Shown here in pieces: positions 20,501-57,998 of a stretch of 64,000 nt of DNA (positions are counted from its first letter, which is position 1; each line of letters begins with the position of its first letter). The notes under the pieces were generated by a model that saw nothing but the letters and a program-made list of their open reading frames with translations, was not told the DNA's origin and searched no databases. Source of the DNA: a virus; IMG/VR virus record IMGVR_UViG_3300050821_000645. The stretch is one strand, 5' to 3'. The position numbers were made by a program, and so were the translations under genes.

Positions 20501-20697
20501 GCGAGAACGAGAATGTTGGGGCCGTAGGGGCCGAGCCAGTAATGCCCCCGAAGAAGGTCGCATCCAGCCCGGGTAGCCAGTGGGCTACCGGAAAGCGCAC
20601 CAATGTCAAAGGATTCGACAAGACGCCCGGGTTCTCCCGGGGCTGTCGTGTGACCAAACGCACAGTTTCAACAACCAGCGAGAAAACCGCCAAATGA
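20497..20697 (+). CDS. hypothetical protein
   Basis: 66-aa ORF. Confidence 0.35.
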   Translation: MSENENVGAVGAEPVMPPKKVASSPGSQWATGKRTNVKGFDKTPGFSRGCRVTKRTVSTTSEKTAK

Positions 20698-21143
20698 CGT
20701 CACTTGCCAAGATGAAGCTACCCGAGAAGATCCTCGACCAGACGCTGGATGACGCATTCCCGGCGGTAGACCCGGGCGAGGTGCCGTTCGGCAGTCTGGT
20801 GCTGATCCAGATCAAGCGCCCCCCGTTCAAGACGAAGGGCGGCATCCTGCTTGGCGAGGGCAGCCAGCAGACCGAGTACGACAACACGAAGGTGGCCAAG
20901 GTGCTAGCTCTTGGACCGCTGTGCTTCAAGAGCCGCGAGACCGGCCAGGACTGGCCCGAGGGCAAGTGGTTCCAGGTTGGCGACTACGTGCGCATGAGCC
21001 AGCACAACGCGACCACGTGGACCGTGCCTATGGCGGGCACGCGAGGCATCGGCATCGAGGAGCGCGTAGTCCTGGGTTACATGGATGAGCTGCACGTGCG
21101 CGGCCTAGTCCAGGATCCGCTGGCGACCCAAGCATTCTTTTAG
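20694..21143 (+). CDS. GroES-like co-chaperonin (Cpn10 / T4 gp31-type)
   Basis: segment LVLIQIKRPPFKTKGGILLGEGSQQ...KVAKVLALG...QVGDYVRM parallels GroES RVIVKR...ETKSAGGIVL...GEVVAVG...KVGDIVIF; about 149 aa with C-terminal extension. Confidence 0.55.
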   Translation: MTSLAKMKLPEKILDQTLDDAFPAVDPGEVPFGSLVLIQIKRPPFKTKGGILLGEGSQQTEYDNTKVAKVLALGPLCFKSRETGQDWPEGKWFQVGDYVRMSQHNATTWTVPMAGTRGIGIEERVVLGYMDELHVRGLVQDPLATQAFF

Positions 21144-21803: not shown

Positions 21804-22376
21804 TTGAGCAATATCAACGTCCCCGTCGATCAATCAACCCTGGCCGCGCTTCTCGTGCAGGCCGGGTACACCGTTACACCGCCCGCCGTCGTTGTGACGC
21901 CGCCCCCCACGACCGTGCCCAACTCCATCATCTATGATGGTCAGCTGAGGTGGCCAGGAGACTGGTCTGGCAATGGGGTGAACATCGATTACGCTAACAC
22001 CACGCTGCTGCCCGGCAAAACGGTGGCCTCCATCCTTAATGTGAACGCGTACGGGTACTGGCTGCCATACATCCTGCACCTGCAGACCTCGCAGTTCACC
22101 AAGCTGGTGCTTACGCTTCGCCCTGCTGTGCCAGGCGCGCACTTCGGGCTGGTTACGTATACGAGCACGGGCAGTGCCACTGATGTCACCGTGGGCAGCC
22201 TGGACACGCTGGATGCGTATCAGACAGAATTCGTGATGGCGAGCGATGTGGTAACATACACCGTACCGTTGACAGCCGTTAAGAGCCAGAACATCGACCT
22301 CTACAAGATCCTGGTGCAGGACAAGAGCGGCACCAAGGGCACAACCTGGGCCGTCCAGGATGCACGATTCGTTTGA
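21804..22376 (+). CDS. hypothetical protein (Thr/Pro/Val-rich N-terminus)
   Basis: 190-aa ORF with non-ATG (TTG) start in the track; start uncertain. Confidence 0.35.
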   Translation: MSNINVPVDQSTLAALLVQAGYTVTPPAVVVTPPPTTVPNSIIYDGQLRWPGDWSGNGVNIDYANTTLLPGKTVASILNVNAYGYWLPYILHLQTSQFTKLVLTLRPAVPGAHFGLVTYTSTGSATDVTVGSLDTLDAYQTEFVMASDVVTYTVPLTAVKSQNIDLYKILVQDKSGTKGTTWAVQDARFV

Positions 22377-22429
22377 ACCCTGGGCCGATCTTAGGATAGG
22401 TCCACAGTACGCCTCGGCACGCGTCTAAA

Positions 22430-22500
22430 CGGCCACGACAGGCCGCCAGCTGGGCGGTACAGCGCCTCCAAAGCGCATGACGGGTGGTTCGATTCCATCG
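22430..22500 (+). tRNA. tRNA-like element, Trp-type (anticodon CCA), noncanonical D-arm
   Basis: acceptor AGGCCGC/GCGGCCT (7 bp), G73, 3' CCA, T-arm GGTGG-TTCGATT-CCATC, anticodon loop CTCCAAA identical to canonical tRNA-Trp with U33/A37; D-arm region is only about 11-12 nt so the cloverleaf is incomplete. Confidence 0.5.
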
Positions 22501-22507
22501 CGGCCTG

Positions 22508-22583
22508 CCACTTCTATTGCGACGTAGCTCAGCAGCAGAGCAGGTGGTTCATACCCACAAGGTCGTGAGTGCAACTCTCACCG
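22508..22583 (+). ncRNA. second tRNA-like / pseudo-tRNA element (anticodon loop TTCATAC, CAT)
   Basis: TAGCTCAGC D-arm (GCTC/GAGC stem), perfect T-stem GTGAG/CTCAC, but acceptor stem pairs only with a bulge and T-loop is TGCAACT; degenerate. Confidence 0.25.
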
Positions 22584-22725
22584 TTCGCTTCCACTTCGGA
22601 CTTAAGTGTCACGACACACGGTGTGTATCCGCGAATAGGGTGAGAGGCCCTGTACACCTTTCATGCCGCCCGTTCGGGCGCACTGCCACCCATCCGGGTG
22701 AGCTATCGCAACCACAAGGACAATC

Positions 22726-23724
22726 ATGCCACGCATCGTAGAGAACGACGGCGACGAAGACGCCGACGACCAGGTACAGACCAATGAAGAGCACGTAGAG
22801 CTGGAGCAAGAGCCCCAGGCGCGAGCTGAACCAGAGATCGAGGTGCTTGAGGAGGGTGACGAACCCCAGGGCGACCAGCGCATCGCGCAGTCAGACGACG
22901 ACGAGCCCCAGCAATCACGCCGCCGCGAGACAGCCGCCGAGCGCCGTCAGCGCGCCAAGGAGGCCAAGATACGCGACAAGCGTGAGCTTGACTTCCAGAA
23001 GCGGGAGCTAGACCGGCTGCAGCGCACCGTGCACGAGCTTACCCAGGGTCAAGTTGTGACGCGGTTAACAGAATTGGATAATCGTCTTGCATCGGCCCAG
23101 GCTGAGGTATCTCAGTGGGAGAAGGTCAAGGCGATGGCGATCTCGAAGCACGAGGGAGCTGATGCCGTTGCCGCAGACAACTTCCTGAATGCGGCACGGG
23201 ACAAGGCCAACCAGGCCATCTGGGAGAAGCAGCAGGTAACCGAGCAGGCTAGGCAGGTGCAGCAGGTGCCAGTCCGGCAAGAGGTCCCGTTCCAGGGTCT
23301 GATGCAGGAGTTCCTGGATGCCAATGAGTGGTATGATCCTAAAGGTGTCGATGAGGATTCCTTGATCGTCAAGGCCATCGACAATGCAGTGGCGCAGAAG
23401 TACAAGCCCACTGACCCCGCCTACTGGAGAGAGCTGCAGAAGCGCGTCGACGCCCGATTCGGGCAGGAGCGCCAGCAATCCCGCAACGACGACTCTGATG
23501 AGGACGACGTGGACGAACCAGTAGTGAGACGGCGCAGCCCCCCTGTGAGCGGCAGCAGCCGCAGCAACTCCGCAGCAAGCGGCGGGCAGCAGCAGATCAG
23601 GCTCAGCCCTGAGCGAGTACAAGCCATGAAAGACGCGGGCCTCTGGGATGATCCCAAGGTGCGCCAGCGTATGGCCAAGAAGTACTCGGAGTACGACAGA
23701 AACAACCCGCAACGGCGAGCCTAA
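22726..23724 (+). CDS. scaffolding protein (putative)
   Basis: 332 aa, highly acidic N-terminus, long coiled-coil, basic C-terminus; sits between portal and capsid genes. Confidence 0.5.
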   Translation: MPRIVENDGDEDADDQVQTNEEHVELEQEPQARAEPEIEVLEEGDEPQGDQRIAQSDDDEPQQSRRRETAAERRQRAKEAKIRDKRELDFQKRELDRLQRTVHELTQGQVVTRLTELDNRLASAQAEVSQWEKVKAMAISKHEGADAVAADNFLNAARDKANQAIWEKQQVTEQARQVQQVPVRQEVPFQGLMQEFLDANEWYDPKGVDEDSLIVKAIDNAVAQKYKPTDPAYWRELQKRVDARFGQERQQSRNDDSDEDDVDEPVVRRRSPPVSGSSRSNSAASGGQQQIRLSPERVQAMKDAGLWDDPKVRQRMAKKYSEYDRNNPQRRA

Positions 23725-55417: not shown

Positions 55418-55655
55418 TGGTGTCTATGAAACCATCACCGCATCGCCTGATGTACGCCGTTCCGCCGTCTACAGCGAATGACCATGTGGTCTCACCAGGC
55501 ACATCCACCAGCTTATCATCCACCCACCTGCGGCGCTGCGCTGGCTTGACGGCGCAGTAGTGCACCTGGAAATCGTGCCGGTGGCGACTCTCTATCTCTG
55601 TGCCGCAGTGTACGCACTTAGCGCTATTGCGTATGATACGCGGGAGTTCGCTCAC
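55389..55655 (-). CDS. zinc-ribbon protein
   Basis: CVHCG...C...C; GTG start overlapping NAMPT-like stop (track ORF 55389..55715). Confidence 0.35.
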   Translation of the reverse strand: MSELPRIIRNSAKCVHCGTEIESRHRHDFQVHYCAVKPAQRRRWVDDKLVDVPGETTWSFAVDGGTAYIRRCGDGFIDTSECTEQESK

Positions 55656-57145
55656 CGCCGCAGCCTTCCACGGATGTCTGCCAGCGTGTGCTTCTTCTTG
55701 AACTTGCCGTTGCACCAGACCTCCTCCAGGAGGTTGCCGGTCATCTGGTCTGAATCTTTGCGCAGGCCATCGATCAGGTGCAGCTTCCCAGGGGCGTCGA
55801 CGAACTCGGCCACAGCAAGCCGTCCACGGGCGCTGCGCTTGACCCCGTCATCTGTCACCGGGTCCTTGAATAGCTCGTGCTCTACGCCGTTTACCTGCGC
55901 CCAGGTAGCCTTCATCGCGAACCCAAAGGTATCCCGGGTGACGTACTGGTAGTTGTAGCTACCCACACCGAATACCACGTTCGTGGACGCGAATCCCTTG
56001 GCCTTTAGCCGCTCGCAGATCTGCGCCGCCCGGTCGCGGTTAATGCTGTCCCCGTAAATCGCGCCGATGTGCTGATCCAGGACTTTGTACCCAGCCTCAT
56101 TAACGGTGCCGCCGAAGATGTTCCACAGGGTCTCGACAACCCCCGCGTACCGGGCGTCGCGCTCCGGCCGAAAGTCGGCTGTCATGATCTCCGGCTTCTC
56201 GGTGCCGCACAGGATGTCGACCGGGTCTCCGCTGTCCGGCCTTATCACAAGCTTACCATTGCGCGCCAGAATACGATACTTGAGCTGCGGCAGGATGTAC
56301 GCCAGCACCTTCCACAGGTCCCAGGTGTCGCTGACCACGCTCAGGATTCCTGACGGGTACACGTCGAGCAGCCGCTCGAAAGTAGCTAGCTCTCCATCCT
56401 GACCACCCGCGCACATAACGCTGTGCTCGGTAGCGGCTACGCTACCACCGAGACCAGGTTGCCCATAGTAATACCGCTCAAGTAGCTGTATTGCTGGTAC
56501 GGTGTCGGTGCCGGTGAAGCTGAGCAGATGTCCTGCTCCACTGAGAGCCGCATCCTCTGGGCCAGACATGCCCCGAAAGCTGAAGTCGTGGCCCTGCCAA
56601 TTGATGAAGCCAGGATCGCCTCCAGTTCGCTGAGCATATAACTCAAGGGTCTTGCGGAAAGCGTGAGCTGTTGTTGCGCTTGTGCAGGCTTTCCAGAGGA
56701 CGTTGGAGAGGATGGTCTCGAAGTAGTTGGTAACCCAGAAGAACTCAGGAATTGTGTTCTCCACTGTGAACATAGGCACCCGGAGAGGGACGCGAGTTCC
56801 TTCTGGGAGAGCCTTAAATCGCAGTGGGATATATCCCAGGTCATGGAGATCTGCGATGTGCTGGGTGCCGATATTGTTTGGCCCGAGACCGGAGTCGAGC
56901 ATACGCTGGTATCGCTTACAAACGGCCCCTCGCTGCTTTCCGAAGAAAGTCTCGTTAGCCAGCTCTTGGAAATAGGCTGCGAGAAAATATTGCAGCCCGA
57001 AGAACACAACCTCATTAACGCCTGGTACTCGGCTCGCCCTAGGGGTGAAGTTGGAGTAGACATACTCTGTTCCTTGGGGGTACTGACGACGATGGTCAGC
57101 CTTGTAAAAGTCGAACAGCGAAATAAGGTCAAACATTTTCAGCAT
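55652..57145 (-). CDS. NAMPT-family phosphoribosyltransferase (NadV-like; candidate Namat of NARP1)
   Basis: 497 aa; N-terminus MFDLISLFDFYKADHRRQYPQGTEYVYSNFTPR matches the NAMPT signature (TDSYK.TH..QYP..T..VYSYFE.R). Confidence 0.8.
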   Translation of the reverse strand: MLKMFDLISLFDFYKADHRRQYPQGTEYVYSNFTPRASRVPGVNEVVFFGLQYFLAAYFQELANETFFGKQRGAVCKRYQRMLDSGLGPNNIGTQHIADLHDLGYIPLRFKALPEGTRVPLRVPMFTVENTIPEFFWVTNYFETILSNVLWKACTSATTAHAFRKTLELYAQRTGGDPGFINWQGHDFSFRGMSGPEDAALSGAGHLLSFTGTDTVPAIQLLERYYYGQPGLGGSVAATEHSVMCAGGQDGELATFERLLDVYPSGILSVVSDTWDLWKVLAYILPQLKYRILARNGKLVIRPDSGDPVDILCGTEKPEIMTADFRPERDARYAGVVETLWNIFGGTVNEAGYKVLDQHIGAIYGDSINRDRAAQICERLKAKGFASTNVVFGVGSYNYQYVTRDTFGFAMKATWAQVNGVEHELFKDPVTDDGVKRSARGRLAVAEFVDAPGKLHLIDGLRKDSDQMTGNLLEEVWCNGKFKKKHTLADIRGRLRR

Positions 57146-57998
57146 CCTTCAGTATCTTATCGATCACGGGCTGCAATGATACCACATACAGTCTATTGGG
57201 GTCATGCACGGTGCCGGTGATATCATTACGCTGCCAGCTGTCGGTGGTCATGATTAGCTCATACTTGGGGTGTATCGCATTCAGGCCCTTCGAGAAGATG
57301 CCGTGCGATACCCACAGAGCCAGCTCGCTGTCCTTAGCGTATGGATCCTTCACGAACTCCTCAGCCAGCAGGTTGAATGTGCCGCCGCCGTCGCAGATGT
57401 CATCTATGACCACATACGATCCAGGTCCCGGTAATGGTGGCATCTTAAAGCCGGTGAACTTACCGGTGGCGAAGTCTCGTGTCTTCTCGCACACGATCAC
57501 CGGGTTACGGATCTGTGCGGCATCGGCCGTATCCTGCGCCCGTCCGATAGCCCCATGGTCGGGTGCGATGATGTACGCGTCGCCTGGCGCTGGTGATGGA
57601 TCAATCACCAGATCGCGAGGCATGAAGTTGCGCTTGATACGCAGCCCGGCGAAGTGCACCGATGAATGTAAGTCGAAGGTGTATAAGTTGTTCACGTATT
57701 GCCCGAGCATGCGCCCGATCATCTCTCGCGTGACCGGTGTACGGTAGTCGGTGCGGTCCTGACGGGCCCCGGGGAAGTACGGGCAGAACAACCACACCTT
57801 GCGGTTCTTCGTGTGACCCTGGTAGTACAGCGCATTCAGTACGCACATAGCCAGGCCGACGTCGTTCCAGGTGCGCGGCTTGAGAAACAGCAGAGCATCC
57901 CCGAAGTTCTCTGGGATGCGTGCGTGCGGCTCGCCTCCCGGAAAGAAAAAAGTCTCAATGCCGCTGGCTGCGTAGTTGTCGCTGTCGATGACCTTCAT
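57129..57998 (-). CDS. ribose-phosphate pyrophosphokinase (Prs) homologue (candidate Adps of NARP1)
   Basis: 289 aa; PRTase loop YVVIDDICDGGGTF; overlaps NAMPT-like gene by 17 nt. Confidence 0.75.
   Translation of the reverse strand: MKVIDSDNYAASGIETFFFPGGEPHARIPENFGDALLFLKPRTWNDVGLAMCVLNALYYQGHTKNRKVWLFCPYFPGARQDRTDYRTPVTREMIGRMLGQYVNNLYTFDLHSSVHFAGLRIKRNFMPRDLVIDPSPAPGDAYIIAPDHGAIGRAQDTADAAQIRNPVIVCEKTRDFATGKFTGFKMPPLPGPGSYVVIDDICDGGGTFNLLAEEFVKDPYAKDSELALWVSHGIFSKGLNAIHPKYELIMTTDSWQRNDITGTVHDPNRLYVVSLQPVIDKILKDAENV

What the first reader, a model, noticed from the sequence alone, without database searches (positions are those of the whole stretch)
22377..22725. About 350-bp noncoding spacer before the scaffold gene carrying a tRNA-Trp-like element with an aberrant D-arm plus a degenerate second tRNA-like element
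Seen in sequence: 22430-22500 has a 7-bp acceptor stem, G73, 3' CCA, a canonical T-arm (GGTGG TTCGATT CCATC) and an anticodon loop CTCCAAA identical to tRNA-Trp (anticodon CCA, U33, A37). Only about 11-12 nt lie between acceptor and anticodon stems, so a normal D-arm cannot form.

A second element at 22508-22583 has a TAGCTCAGC D-arm start and a perfect T-stem, but a bulged acceptor stem and an off-consensus T-loop. Downstream there is a 13-bp perfect palindrome ACACACGGTGTGT at about 22606-22618 and a GC hairpin CGCCCGTTCGGGCG at about 22655-22668.

Inference: this is either a functional but unusual phage tRNA (D-arm-reduced), a decaying tRNA cluster, or a tRNA-like structure used as a processing or regulatory signal ahead of the head operon.
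Basis: seen in the sequence. Interest (0 to 1): 0.55.

Follow-up and report, generated by a model that had tools for sequence, protein, structure and literature searches.

The report
Phage tRNA-Trp with miniature D-arm
The spacer before the phage scaffold gene holds two real but structurally unusual tRNA genes: a 71-nt tRNA-Trp with a miniature D-arm and a tRNA-Met-type gene with an altered elbow. They sit in a slot that carries 0 to at least 23 tRNAs in related soil phages, and the miniature D-arm recurs there, so it looks like a working design and not decay.

Summary

**Element 1 (22440-22510)** is a tRNA-Trp(CCA) called by ARAGORN at default settings (0 hits in 2.56 Mb of shuffles). It has a perfect acceptor stem and T-arm, G73 and an encoded CCA. 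Only 14 nt lie where a D-arm normally takes about 19.
- An identical 71-nt copy sits in a phage whose capsid gene is 88% identical.
- The same miniature plan, with different sequence, occurs in another relative's tRNA-Trp and in a tRNA-Asp.
- None of 385 tRNAs from other phage loci is this short.

**Element 2 (22518-22593)** is not degenerate. It passes Rfam tRNA (44 bits) and belongs to a conserved CAU-anticodon family with compensatory changes in 10 of 19 pairs. Its odd T-loop (G55) always co-occurs with a D-loop lacking GG.

The tRNAs occupy a variable slot upstream of a conserved 5'-UTR double hairpin.

**Best reading:** functional, co-transcribed phage tRNAs with a lineage-specific compact architecture.

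**Poorly supported:** decay, attP remnant and an obligatory processing signal.

**Open:** UGA reading by the tRNA-Trp (its top anticodon-stem pair, 27·43, is unpaired) cannot be excluded, but I found no in-frame UGA.

The parts
22377..22725 (+). Whole intergenic spacer between the 190-aa head-module ORF (stop TGA at 22374-22376) and the scaffold-like gene (ATG at 22726). It consists of a leader, two tRNA genes, a non-conserved stretch and a conserved 5'-UTR block.
   Evidence: The spacer is 100% identical in two other samples (L035, L036). No sigma-70-like promoter or intrinsic terminator lies inside it.
22407..22438 (+). 32-nt leader GTACGCCTCGGCACGCGTCTAAACGGCCACGA, directly upstream of the first tRNA. 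It is identical in relative L072, where it precedes tRNA-Met, and recognisable in L130. Role unknown; it could be a processing site or a promoter.
22440..22510 (+). tRNA-Trp(CCA), 71 nt including the encoded CCA, with a compact D-arm.
   Evidence: ARAGORN at default settings (drawing); 0 hits in 40 shuffles. It is 71/71 identical in L128. RF00005 does not reach threshold; the best Rfam match is tRNA-Sec at 24.8 bits.
22447..22460 (+). Compact D region, CA GCU GGGC GGU AC: a 3-pair stem (G·U, C-G, U·G) and a 4-nt loop that keeps GG. It is 14 nt long where a normal D region takes about 19.
   Evidence: Structural parse. The plan matches L129 tRNA-Asp (CA CCA GGGG UGG AG) and L072 tRNA-Trp (U CCCU GUGG AGGG UC).
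22461..22477 (+). Anticodon arm AGCGC CUCCAAA GCGCA: 4 G-C pairs plus an unpaired A27·A43. The anticodon CCA is at 22468-22470, with U33 and A37.
22483..22499 (+). Canonical T-arm GGUGG UUCGAUU CCAUC of the tRNA-Trp.
   Evidence: The same T-arm occurs in 47 otherwise normal-length phage tRNA-Trp genes.
22518..22593 (+). CAU-anticodon tRNA (Met type, possibly Ile2), 76 nt including the encoded CCA. Features: U1·U72, one bulged U in the 3' acceptor strand, U73, anticodon CAT at 22550-22552, D-loop AGCAGCA without GG, and T-loop UGCAACU with G55.
   Evidence: RF00005 at 44.1 bits, E = 4e-6. ARAGORN finds it only in mitochondrial mode. Family alignment with L070, L072 and L130: 10 of 19 pairs have compensatory changes.
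22614..22626 (.). Palindrome ACACACGGTGTGT. It occurs once in the window and is absent from the aligned spacers of the relatives.
22655..22725 (+). Conserved 5'-UTR block of the scaffold gene: CCTTT-ATG, hairpin 1 (22667-22680, CGCCCGTTCGGGCG), hairpin 2 (22687-22700, CACCCATCCGGGTG), then CAACCACAAGGAC with the ribosome-binding site AAGGA (22716-22720). It is present in all 10 relatives compared, including those without tRNAs.
   Evidence: C-G to U-A double changes keep both hairpins.

Best explanation
The spacer carries two genuine, most likely functional phage tRNA genes. They sit in a recombination-prone 'tRNA slot' between a head-module gene and the conserved 5' UTR of the scaffold gene.

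- Both lie on the same strand as the head genes, with no promoter or terminator of their own (shown).
- They are therefore probably transcribed within the head-gene transcript and cut out by RNase P at the 5' end. The 3' end would only need trimming, because CCA is encoded (inferred).
- The first is a tRNA-Trp read by the host TrpRS through anticodon CCA, G73 and A1-U72, and it decodes UGG (inferred).
- Its D-arm is a lineage-specific miniature: a 3-4 bp stem and a 4-nt GG-containing loop that can still dock on the normal T-loop.
- The second is a CAU-anticodon tRNA (Met, or Ile2 if lysidinylated). Its unusual elbow, A18-G19 in the D-loop with U54-G55-C56 in the T-loop, is a co-varying variant and not damage.
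- The likely purpose is to supply the phage with its own Trp and Met/Ile tRNAs. The altered D-arm and elbow may make them poor substrates for host tRNA-targeting nucleases (speculative).
For: **Detection**
- ARAGORN at default settings finds the tRNA-Trp and gives 0 hits in 2.56 Mb of shuffled window sequence.
- RF00005 finds the CAU tRNA at 44.1 bits.

**Conservation beyond neighbouring genes**
- L128 has a 71/71 identical tRNA-Trp, while its scaffold and capsid genes are 77.5% and 87.8% identical in DNA. The flanks also differ.

**Same architecture, different sequence**
- L072 tRNA-Trp shares only about 54% of positions. All 7 acceptor pairs differ but stay paired. It has a 4-bp D-stem, a 4-nt D-loop and a total length of 71 nt, and it passes RF00005 at 31.2 bits.
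- L129 tRNA-Asp has the plan CA-3bp-GGGG-3bp-AG, and L129 tRNA-Ser(UGA) is similar.
- Background: 0 of 385 tRNAs from other phage loci have an anticodon position below 32.

**Other support**
- Identity set: CCA anticodon, G73 and A1-U72 are what bacterial TrpRS uses (own knowledge). All tRNAs in the clade encode CCA.
- CAU family: 10 of 19 pairs carry compensatory double changes.
- Elbow: among the distinct tRNAs ARAGORN detects, G55 goes with a D-loop lacking GG in 6 of 7 clade tRNAs under an automated test, and the seventh's GG lies in the D-stem. Hand inspection, adding the window's own tRNA, gives 8 of 8. All 21 U55 tRNAs keep GG.
- The slot holds 0, 1, 2 or at least 23 tRNAs in relatives.
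Against: - RF00005 does not reach threshold on the tRNA-Trp.
- Nearest-neighbour folding does not favour the cloverleaf for any of the three compact tRNAs; it lies 4-6 kcal/mol above the minimum-free-energy fold. The z-scores are unremarkable.
- In the window copy the minimum-free-energy fold destroys the anticodon hairpin. Its D-stem adds only about 0.7 kcal/mol.
- Only three or four independent compact sequences exist, so the covariation is anecdotal and not statistically tested.
- The identical copy in L128 could reflect recent gene transfer and not selection.
- The window's CAU tRNA has a 1-nt acceptor bulge that its three closest homologues lack, and a lower score (44 against 52-63 bits).
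- There are no expression or aminoacylation data, and the host is unknown.
Confidence: 0.75

Rival explanations
1. UGA-reading tRNA-Trp. The tRNA keeps anticodon CCA. Its unpaired 27·43 (a 4-bp anticodon stem) and remodelled D-arm let it also read UGA, as in the Hirsh suppressor and Blastocrithidia-like tRNA-Trp. The phage would gain stop-codon readthrough or a way to disturb host termination.
For: - 27·43 is unpaired in both compact tRNA-Trp types: A·A in the window and L128, C·A in L072.
- PMC13092985 shows that a 4-bp-stem tRNA-Trp(CCA) raises UGA readthrough about 2.5-fold in E. coli. It also recalls that the D-arm changes A9C and G24A do the same.
- Head and tail genes avoid TGA stops: 5 of 23 against 24 of 32 elsewhere, Fisher p = 1.2e-4.
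Against: - There is no sign of in-frame TGA. Treating TGA as sense gives no gain in coding coverage.
- In-frame extensions after TGA are short, with a median of 14 codons.
- The head genes of relatives that lack the tRNA-Trp use the same TAA/TAG stops.
- 27·43 mismatches are common in this clade whatever the amino acid, 7 of 19 in L129. They occur in 8.9% of bacterial tRNA-Trp genes.
Confidence: 0.12
2. Nuclease-evasion design; this elaborates the best explanation and does not exclude it. The compact D-arm and the A18/G55 elbow were selected because they make the phage tRNAs invisible to host tRNA-cleaving defence or toxin nucleases, while the host tRNAs are destroyed.
For: - Phage tRNAs that escape tRNA-targeting immunity are documented (PMC10264068; PMC11464382).
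- The PARIS nuclease AriB contacts D-loop U16-U17, and a D-loop change found in the T5 tRNA impairs cleavage (PMC12409363).
- Trp and Met each have a single codon, so codon-bias compensation cannot explain these tRNAs.
- The phage also carries a NAMPT-family gene. By my own recall, such genes are used by phages against NAD-depleting defence.
Against: The argument is purely by analogy. No nuclease, host or cleavage data exist. The anticodon loop, the usual target, is fully canonical (CUCCAAA).
Confidence: 0.25
3. Decaying tRNA genes. The tRNA-Trp suffered a roughly 5-nt D-arm deletion and the CAU tRNA an acceptor insertion. Both would be non-functional remnants on their way out.
For: - RF00005 fails on the tRNA-Trp, and ARAGORN's standard mode fails on the CAU tRNA.
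- The D-stem of the window copy is weak.
- Several relatives have lost all tRNAs from the slot.
Against: - The copy in a phage with 12-22% DNA divergence in neighbouring genes is 71/71 identical.
- All other stems are perfect, and the identity nucleotides and CCA are intact.
- The same compact plan occurs in three other tRNAs of different sequence and identity.
- Compensatory changes are seen throughout the CAU family.
Confidence: 0.07
4. tRNA-like processing or regulatory signal. The structures would serve mainly as RNase P/Z cleavage sites that punctuate or stabilise the head-gene mRNA, and not as adaptors in translation.
For: - They are co-oriented and embedded in the head operon, with no promoter or terminator of their own.
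- They lie directly upstream of a conserved structured 5' UTR.
Against: - Close relatives (L071, L121-124, L126-127) have no tRNA in the slot, yet keep the UTR hairpins.
- Slot content varies from 0 to at least 23 tRNAs of many identities.
- The anticodon loop, discriminator and CCA are conserved, which a mere cleavage signal would not need.
Confidence: 0.06
5. attP or integration-site remnant derived from a host tRNA-Trp 3' half.
For: None beyond the presence of a tRNA-like 3' end.
Against: - The gene is full length, with its own matching 5' acceptor strand.
- No GTDB species-representative genome contains the 25-nt T-arm plus acceptor 3' half.
- No integrase domain was found in the 20 ORFs scanned with Pfam, which cover nearly all ORFs of at least 300 aa outside the recognised head genes.
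- The slot behaves as a tRNA array in relatives.
Confidence: 0.01

Closest known systems
Phage-encoded tRNA genes and arrays (for example T4, T5, mycobacteriophage cluster C1; Caulobacter phage GB2A, the nearest cultured relative by terminase, has a tRNA-Val in its head module)
   Same: tRNA genes sit between phage protein genes on the same strand. Their number varies among relatives, and they are presumed to be charged by host synthetases (PMC10264068).
   Different: Here several members have a D region of only 14-16 nt. None of the 385 tRNAs from other phage loci examined has this. Others combine G55 with an A18-type D-loop.
Mammalian mitochondrial type I tRNA, mt-tRNA-Ser(UCN)
   Same: A shortened connector, a small D-loop, retained G18-G19 and T-psi-C motifs, and presumably an L-shape (PMC7609411).
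   Different: The mitochondrial tRNA has a 6-bp anticodon stem and a 3-nt variable loop. The phage tRNA-Trp has a 4-bp stem plus a mismatch and a 5-nt variable loop. It is G+C-rich and of bacterial-virus origin.
tRNA-Pyl
   Same: 0-1 connector nucleotides and a 4-5-nt D-loop (PMC7609411).
   Different: tRNA-Pyl lacks G18-G19 and T-psi-C, has a 6-bp anticodon stem and a CUA anticodon, and needs its own synthetase. None of this applies here.
tRNA-Sec D-arm (6-bp stem, 4-nt loop)
   Same: A 4-nt D-loop. Rfam's tRNA-Sec model is the best, sub-threshold match to the window tRNA-Trp. The L129 tRNA-Thr and tRNA-Met genes of the same clade have exactly a 6-bp stem with a 4-nt loop.
   Different: The acceptor/T arrangement here is 7/5, not 8/5. 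There is no long variable arm, the anticodon is CCA, and the D-stem of the window tRNA has only 3 pairs.
UGA-reading tRNA-Trp(CCA): Hirsh suppressor (G24A), A9C, and Blastocrithidia-like 4-bp anticodon-stem variants
   Same: The CCA anticodon is kept, 27·43 is unpaired, and the D-arm, the region where the classical suppressor mutations lie, is altered (PMC13092985).
   Different: Those have normal-length D-arms. Here I found no in-frame UGA and no link between stop usage and the presence of the tRNA.
Phage T5 tRNA-Lys, which escapes the PARIS nuclease AriB
   Same: A phage tRNA whose sequence differences from the host, including one in the D-loop, block a defence nuclease (PMC11464382; PMC12409363).
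   Different: The T5 tRNA has point differences within a normal cloverleaf. Here the whole D-arm is miniaturised, and no nuclease is known.

Membership tests
tRNA (canonical cloverleaf, Rfam RF00005) | 7-bp acceptor stem, discriminator base and 3' CCA | tested here: met
   tRNA-Trp: 7 of 7 Watson-Crick pairs, G73 and encoded CCA. CAU tRNA: 6 pairs plus U1·U72 and one bulged U, then U73 and CCA.
tRNA (canonical cloverleaf, Rfam RF00005) | T-arm of 5 bp with a 7-nt loop U54-U55-C56-R-A | tested here: met
   tRNA-Trp: GGUGG UUCGAUU CCAUC. The CAU tRNA departs from this with UGCAACU (G55), matched by a D-loop without GG.
tRNA (canonical cloverleaf, Rfam RF00005) | Anticodon arm of 5 bp with a 7-nt loop carrying U33 and a purine at 37 | tested here: inconclusive
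   The loop CUCCAAA is canonical. The stem has 4 pairs plus A27·A43. Such 4-bp stems occur in 5.6% of bacterial tRNAs (PMC13092985).
tRNA (canonical cloverleaf, Rfam RF00005) | D-arm with two connector nucleotides, a 3-4-bp stem and a 7-11-nt loop | tested here: not met
   tRNA-Trp: 14 nt in all, with a 3-pair stem (two of them G·U) and a 4-nt loop. The CAU tRNA has a normal D-arm.
tRNA (canonical cloverleaf, Rfam RF00005) | Score at or above the Rfam gathering threshold (29 bits) | tested here: not met
   tRNA-Trp: no RF00005 match is reported; the best match is tRNA-Sec at 24.8 bits against a threshold of 47. The CAU tRNA scores 44.1 bits and passes. The compact L072 tRNA-Trp scores 31.2 bits and passes.
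tRNA (canonical cloverleaf, Rfam RF00005) | Mature RNA is made, aminoacylated and used on the ribosome | not testable with these tools
   No expression data are available. Conservation is only indirect support.
Bacterial tRNA-Trp (TrpRS identity set, from own knowledge) | Anticodon C34-C35-A36, discriminator G73 and A1-U72 | tested here: met
   All three are present in the window and L128 copy. L072 has CCA and G73 but G1-C72.
UGA-decoding tRNA-Trp(CCA) (Hirsh-type or 4-bp anticodon stem) | 27-43 unpaired with a 7-nt anticodon loop | tested here: met
   A27·A43 in the window, C27·A43 in L072.
UGA-decoding tRNA-Trp(CCA) (Hirsh-type or 4-bp anticodon stem) | In-frame UGA codons, or UGA depletion tied to the presence of the tRNA | tested here: not met
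   Code 4 gives no coding gain, and extensions after TGA are short. Head genes use TAA/TAG in relatives with and without the tRNA-Trp.
Compact-core tRNAs (mt-tRNA-Ser(UCN) / tRNA-Pyl type) | Reduced connector and a small (4-5-nt) D-loop | tested here: met
Compact-core tRNAs (mt-tRNA-Ser(UCN) / tRNA-Pyl type) | 6-bp anticodon stem and 3-nt variable loop | tested here: not met
   The window tRNA has a 4+1 anticodon stem and a 5-nt variable loop. It works like a compact-core tRNA but is not a member of those families.
attP / tRNA-fragment integration site | 3' part of a host tRNA, identical to the host gene, with an integrase nearby | tested here: not met
   The gene is full length. There is no match to its 3' half in GTDB representative genomes. 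No integrase domain was found in 20 ORFs scanned. The host itself is unknown, so identity to the true host tRNA could not be checked.
tRNA pseudogene | Uncompensated stem disruptions and neutral divergence between relatives | tested here: not met
   71/71 identity against 78-88% in flanking genes. The stems are intact. The one caveat is the 1-nt acceptor bulge in the window's CAU tRNA.

The most novel reading that the evidence does not exclude
The miniature D-arm, together with the unpaired 27·43, is an adaptive redesign and not a tolerated oddity. This soil-phage clade would then have evolved its own structural class of tRNAs: compact D-arms, 4-nt D-loops and an A18/G55 elbow. These tRNAs would stay chargeable by host synthetases while being insensitive to host tRNA-targeting nucleases, able to read UGA as Trp in the Hirsh manner, or both.
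Probability: 0.3. Interest if true: 0.8.

Novelty: new variant of a known kind. Interest (0 to 1): 0.6.

Why it matters
Outside mitochondria and the special tRNA-Sec and tRNA-Pyl systems, tRNAs keep a near-invariant D-arm. Standard detectors and textbooks assume this. The 2020 review of non-canonical tRNAs (PMC7609411) does not mention phages at all.

- **A second setting for compact tRNAs.** A clade of bacterial viruses that repeatedly uses a 14-16-nt D region for ordinary amino acids (Trp, Asp, Ser) would show that bacterial synthetases, EF-Tu and ribosomes accept such tRNAs.
- **Missed genes.** ARAGORN and Rfam each missed one of the two genes here, so phage tRNA counts are probably underestimates.
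- **Natural scaffolds.** These tRNAs could serve as starting points for minimal or orthogonal tRNA engineering.
- **A testable link to D-arm effects.** The design touches two active questions: D-arm changes that alter decoding fidelity (UGA reading by tRNA-Trp) and phage tRNAs that escape tRNA-cleaving immunity.

Tried and rejected
- **Cultured phage relatives by DNA.** blastn of the 3.5-kb region against 50,697 phage records found no match.
- **IMG/VR relatives through the scaffold protein**. All but one hit were at most 45% identical. The exception, L136, is 63% identical and is the same contig as L037. The loci contain no tRNAs.
- **The upstream 190-aa ORF** has no relatives in IMG/VR.
- **Exact and patterned DNA searches for the compact tRNA-Trp in IMG/VR** gave nothing, or only a normal tRNA-Trp, one unconvincing tRNA-like sequence and a tRNA-Trp 3' fragment found twice in one contig.
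- **GTDB genomes** have neither the tRNA 3' half nor the scaffold protein, so the host could not be identified.
- **Failed contig look-ups.** P0004 and P0015 were not on record.
- **Single-sequence thermodynamic folding** neither supports nor discriminates the cloverleaf.
- **MAFFT/RNAalifold on the three compact tRNAs** misaligned the middle, so I made the structural comparison by hand in a script.
- **Relaxed ARAGORN thresholds** only added implausible hits inside genes.
- **TGA recoding** was tested and rejected.
- **A search for sigma-70 promoters and intrinsic terminators in the spacer** found none.
Full report
**Observation.**

Element 1 spans 22440-22510:
- acceptor AGGCCGC/GCGGCCU with 7 Watson-Crick pairs, then G73 and an encoded CCA;
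- T-arm GGUGG-UUCGAUU-CCAUC;
- anticodon loop CUCCAAA.

Fourteen nucleotides (22447-22460, CAGCUGGGCGGUAC) lie between the acceptor and anticodon stems, where a normal tRNA has about 19. ARAGORN at default settings calls it tRNA-Trp(CCA), 71 nt, with the anticodon at position 29. It is the only default hit in the 64-kb window, and 40 dinucleotide shuffles of the window (2.56 Mb) gave none. Rfam's general tRNA model does not reach threshold on it. The best match is tRNA-Sec at 24.8 bits, which fits the 4-nt D-loop.

Element 2 spans 22518-22593. Rfam's tRNA model does find it, at 44.1 bits against a gathering score of 29 (E = 4e-6). Standard ARAGORN misses it and only the mitochondrial mode reports it. 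So each detector missed one of the two genes.

**Anatomy of the tRNA-Trp.**
My parse reads: acceptor (7 bp); C-A; D-stem G·U, C-G, U·G; D-loop GGGC; A-C; anticodon stem of four G-C pairs under an unpaired A27·A43; loop CUCCAAA; variable loop UGACG; canonical T-arm; G73; CCA.

The anticodon CCA, G73 and A1-U72 are the nucleotides bacterial TrpRS relies on (own knowledge). The D-loop keeps GG and the T-loop keeps UUC, so the usual elbow contacts remain possible.

**Anatomy of the CAU tRNA.**
The parse is U1·U72, G2-C71, C3-G70, G4-C69, one bulged U, A5-U68, C6-G67, G7-C66. It has a normal 4-bp D-stem with loop AGCAGCA and an anticodon stem of G27·A43 plus 4 pairs. The anticodon loop is UUCAUAC, the T-arm is GUGAG-UGCAACU-CUCAC, and it ends in U73 and CCA.

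**Relatives.**
- The same phage, with a 100% identical spacer, occurs in two other sequencing runs.
- Homologues of the scaffold-like protein form a graded series from 85% to 33% identity. I recovered contigs for several of them.
- The nearest cultured phages infect Caulobacter and share only 44% terminase identity. Their head-gene order is similar, with a tRNA-Val between terminase and portal.

In the uncultured relatives, the interval upstream of the scaffold gene behaves as a variable tRNA slot:

| Locus | Scaffold identity to window | tRNAs in the slot |
|---|---|---|
| L071 | 82% | none |
| L121-124 | 79% | none |
| L126/127 | 74% | none |
| L070 | 85% | Met |
| L038/L040 | about 58% | Met |
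| L130 | 72% | Pro + Met |
| L072/L073 | 77% | Met + Trp |
| L128 | 70% | Met + Trp |
| window | - | Trp + Met |
| L129 | 66% | 2.5-kb array |

In L129, ARAGORN finds 19 tRNAs, Rfam one more, and a T-arm/acceptor scan three further candidates. Every tRNA in the clade encodes its CCA.

**Evidence that the compact tRNA-Trp is maintained.**
- L128 carries a copy identical at 71 of 71 positions, yet its scaffold and capsid genes are only 77.5% and 87.8% identical in DNA. The flanks differ, and there Met precedes Trp. At 12% divergence, zero changes in 71 nt has a probability of about 1e-4 (my arithmetic).
- L072/L073 carry a different tRNA-Trp, also 71 nt. ARAGORN mis-registered it by 4 nt; the correct bounds are 2818-2888. 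All seven acceptor pairs differ from the window's but stay paired. Its D region is U-CCCU-GUGG-AGGG-UC, a 4-bp stem with a 4-nt loop. Its 27·43 is again unpaired (C·A). It passes RF00005 at 31.2 bits.
- In L129, a tRNA-Asp(GUC) of 72 nt has the D region CA-CCA-GGGG-UGG-AG. This is the same 14-nt plan as the window's CA-GCU-GGGC-GGU-AC, and two of its three stem pairs differ from the window's while all three stay paired.
- L129 tRNA-Ser(UGA) has C-GCAU-UGGC-GUGC-UUA.
- Three L129 tRNA-Thr genes and the L129 tRNA-Met use a 6-bp stem with a 4-nt D-loop.
- The 47 IMG/VR phage tRNA-Trp genes that share this exact T-arm show normal-length 5' halves: 44 by the script, and three whose script register was spurious and that I read as normal by eye.

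The compact D-arm is therefore rare in general but recurrent in this clade, across amino-acid identities and with paired changes. That pattern is what selection for a structure predicts, and what decay does not.

**The second element is not degenerate.**
Its homologues in L070, L072 and L130 score 52-63 bits. The four-way alignment shows compensatory double changes in 10 of 19 pairs. The T-loop UGCAAnU (G55 in place of the near-universal U55) is shared by all four.

Within the clade, an automated test on the distinct tRNAs ARAGORN detects found that 6 of 7 G55 tRNAs have a D-loop lacking GG. The seventh (L129 tRNA-Gln) has a GG that lies in the D-stem and not the loop. Inspecting the parsed D-loops by hand, and adding the window's own tRNA, gives 8 of 8. 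These loops mostly carry AG instead. All 21 U55 tRNAs keep GG.

The clearest contrast is within L129: tRNA-Thr(UGU) has CUGG with UUCGACU, and tRNA-Thr(CGU) has CUAG with UGCAAGU. The same pairing of features appears in unrelated IMG/VR phages (L075 Cys, L081 Pro and Lys, L091 Met, L098 Met). I read this as covariation of the tertiary 18-55 contact (inference).

One caveat stands. The window's copy alone has a 1-nt bulge in the acceptor stem, and it is the lowest-scoring of the four. A Met-like element in L037 that both tools miss also seems to have an acceptor bulge (by eye).

Whether the CAU tRNA is elongator Met, an initiator-like species or Ile2 cannot be settled. ATA is 0.79% of codons, as frequent as ATT, which would fit Ile2.

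**The rest of the spacer.**
- A 32-nt leader (22407-22438) is identical in L072 and recognisable in L130. It always lies just upstream of the first tRNA.
- The palindrome at 22614-22626 is not conserved.
The block is present in all ten relatives compared, including those whose whole spacer is only about 75 nt. C-G to U-A double changes preserve both stems.
- This block is the constant 5' UTR of the scaffold gene, and the tRNAs are inserted upstream of it.
- No sigma-70-like promoter or intrinsic terminator lies in the spacer, so co-transcription with the head genes is the simplest reading (inference).

**Mechanism and rivals.**
*Best explanation (0.75).* These are two functional phage tRNA genes processed out of the head-gene transcript. 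The tRNA-Trp is charged by host TrpRS and decodes UGG, and the compact D-arm is a lineage-specific architecture.

*Against it.*
- The RF00005 model fails on the tRNA-Trp.
- The cloverleaf lies 4-6 kcal/mol above the minimum-free-energy fold for all three compact tRNAs.
- The window's D-stem is marginal.
- The number of independent sequences is small.
- There are no expression data.

*UGA reading (0.12).* This is the most interesting rival.
- The classical UGA-suppressing changes in tRNA-Trp(CCA) lie in the D-arm (G24A, A9C). An unpaired 27-43 raises UGA readthrough about 2.5-fold in E. coli (PMC13092985). Both compact tRNA-Trp types have 27·43 unpaired.
- However, reading TGA as sense gives no coding gain, and in-frame extensions after TGA are short.
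- Head and tail genes do avoid TGA stops (5 of 23 against 24 of 32, p = 1.2e-4). But the same head genes end in TAA or TAG in relatives that lack the tRNA-Trp.
- 27·43 mismatches are frequent in this clade whatever the amino acid.

*Nuclease evasion (0.25, not exclusive of the best explanation).* There is precedent in phage tRNAs that escape tRNA-targeting immunity, including a D-loop contact of the PARIS nuclease (PMC10264068, PMC11464382, PMC12409363). Nothing here tests it.

*The remaining rivals.* Pseudogenes (0.07), a pure processing signal (0.06) and an attP remnant (0.01) are disfavoured. The reasons are the conservation, the tRNA-less relatives, the absence of any matching bacterial tRNA 3' half and the lack of an integrase among 20 ORFs scanned.

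**Comparison with known systems.**
As phage-encoded tRNA genes these are ordinary. As structures they are not.
- The nearest analogues of the compact D region are mt-tRNA-Ser(UCN) and tRNA-Pyl. Both have a reduced connector and a small D-loop, but they also have a 6-bp anticodon stem and a 3-nt variable loop, which this tRNA lacks.
- tRNA-Sec shares the 4-nt D-loop, but with a 6-bp stem, an 8/5 acceptor/T arrangement and a long variable arm (PMC7609411).

The window tRNA works like a compact-core tRNA without belonging to any of those families. That 2020 review does not mention phages. My full-text searches found no description of phage tRNAs with shortened D-arms. This is absence within the held library only.

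**Verdict.**
I rate it a new variant of a known kind, with interest 0.6.

The main limitations are the small number of independent compact sequences, the unknown host, and the lack of any RNA-level data.

Noticed in passing
window 22518-22593; also L070 2784-2859, L072 2699-2773, L130 2797-2871, L129 (Thr-CGU, Met, Gln, Leu), and unrelated IMG/VR loci L075, L081, L091, L098: T-loops reading UGCRAnU (G55 in place of U55) co-occur with D-loops that lack GG and mostly carry AG. All 21 U55 tRNAs of the clade keep GG. This looks like covariation of the tertiary 18-55 elbow contact. In L081, other elbow variants (D-loop GC with T-loop UUGG) suggest that 19-56 swaps as well.
   Followed up: partly
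L129 494-2927 (JGI 3300042090, scaffold protein 66% identical): The same slot holds an array of at least 23 tRNA genes, all with encoded CCA. Many are non-canonical, with 6-bp D-stems and 4-nt loops in the three Thr and the Met genes, or compact D-arms in Asp and Ser(UGA). Seven of 19 have 27·43 mismatches. Three candidates (641-715, 1471-1542, 1742-1814) were missed by both ARAGORN and Rfam.
   Followed up: partly
window 22655-22725: A conserved double-hairpin 5' UTR lies directly before the scaffold gene's ribosome-binding site. It is present in all 10 relatives compared, with C-G to U-A compensatory changes, and has no Rfam match. Its role could be mRNA stabilisation, a processing boundary or a regulatory element.
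   Followed up: partly
window 22407-22438: A 32-nt leader is identical between the window and L072 although different tRNAs follow it. It is partly conserved in L130 and absent in L070. It could be a processing site or a promoter for the tRNA cassette.
   Followed up: no
window 15035-51536 compared with the rest: There is a strong stop-codon bias. Packaging, head and tail genes end mostly in TAA or TAG (TGA in 5 of 23), while the other genes end mostly in TGA (24 of 32, often as ATGA overlaps). Fisher p = 1.2e-4. The bias also holds in relatives without the tRNA-Trp.
   Followed up: partly
window 55652-57145 (-), neighbour 57129-57998 (-): The phage encodes a nicotinamide/nicotinate phosphoribosyltransferase-family protein (PF04095 at 1e-39, with a NAMPT N-terminal domain). 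From memory, such NAD-salvage genes help phages counter NAD-depleting defence systems. The overlapping 289-aa neighbour has no Pfam hit.
   Followed up: no
window, all predicted genes: ATA makes up 0.79% of codons, as common as ATT, in a 60% G+C genome. This would fit the CAU tRNA being a lysidine-modified tRNA-Ile2 and not tRNA-Met.
   Followed up: no
L037 about 2665-2741 (same contig as L136): A CAU-anticodon tRNA-like sequence (AGCGGGG...GCGAGTTCGATTCTCGC CCATCGCT ACCA) lies upstream of the scaffold gene. It has an apparent bulged A in the acceptor stem and an odd D region. ARAGORN did not detect it, and an Rfam search at E <= 0.1 reported nothing there.
   Followed up: no
L071 4368-4784, L121 3781-4203, L128 3632-4264: Some relatives have an Endonuclease VII-domain (PF02945) gene inserted right after the capsid gene. 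The window has none there, which suggests a mobile nuclease insertion.
   Followed up: no
window 16600/16601, 21803/21804, 47120/47121: Three gene pairs abut in the same reading frame, separated only by a TAA stop: terminase/portal, the 100-aa/190-aa ORFs, and the 269-aa/1471-aa ORFs. This may well be chance.
   Followed up: no
window 20580-21143: A GroES/Cpn10-like co-chaperonin gene lies in the head module (PHROG 3188 at 8e-9; weak PF00166 in the Logan annotation).
   Followed up: no
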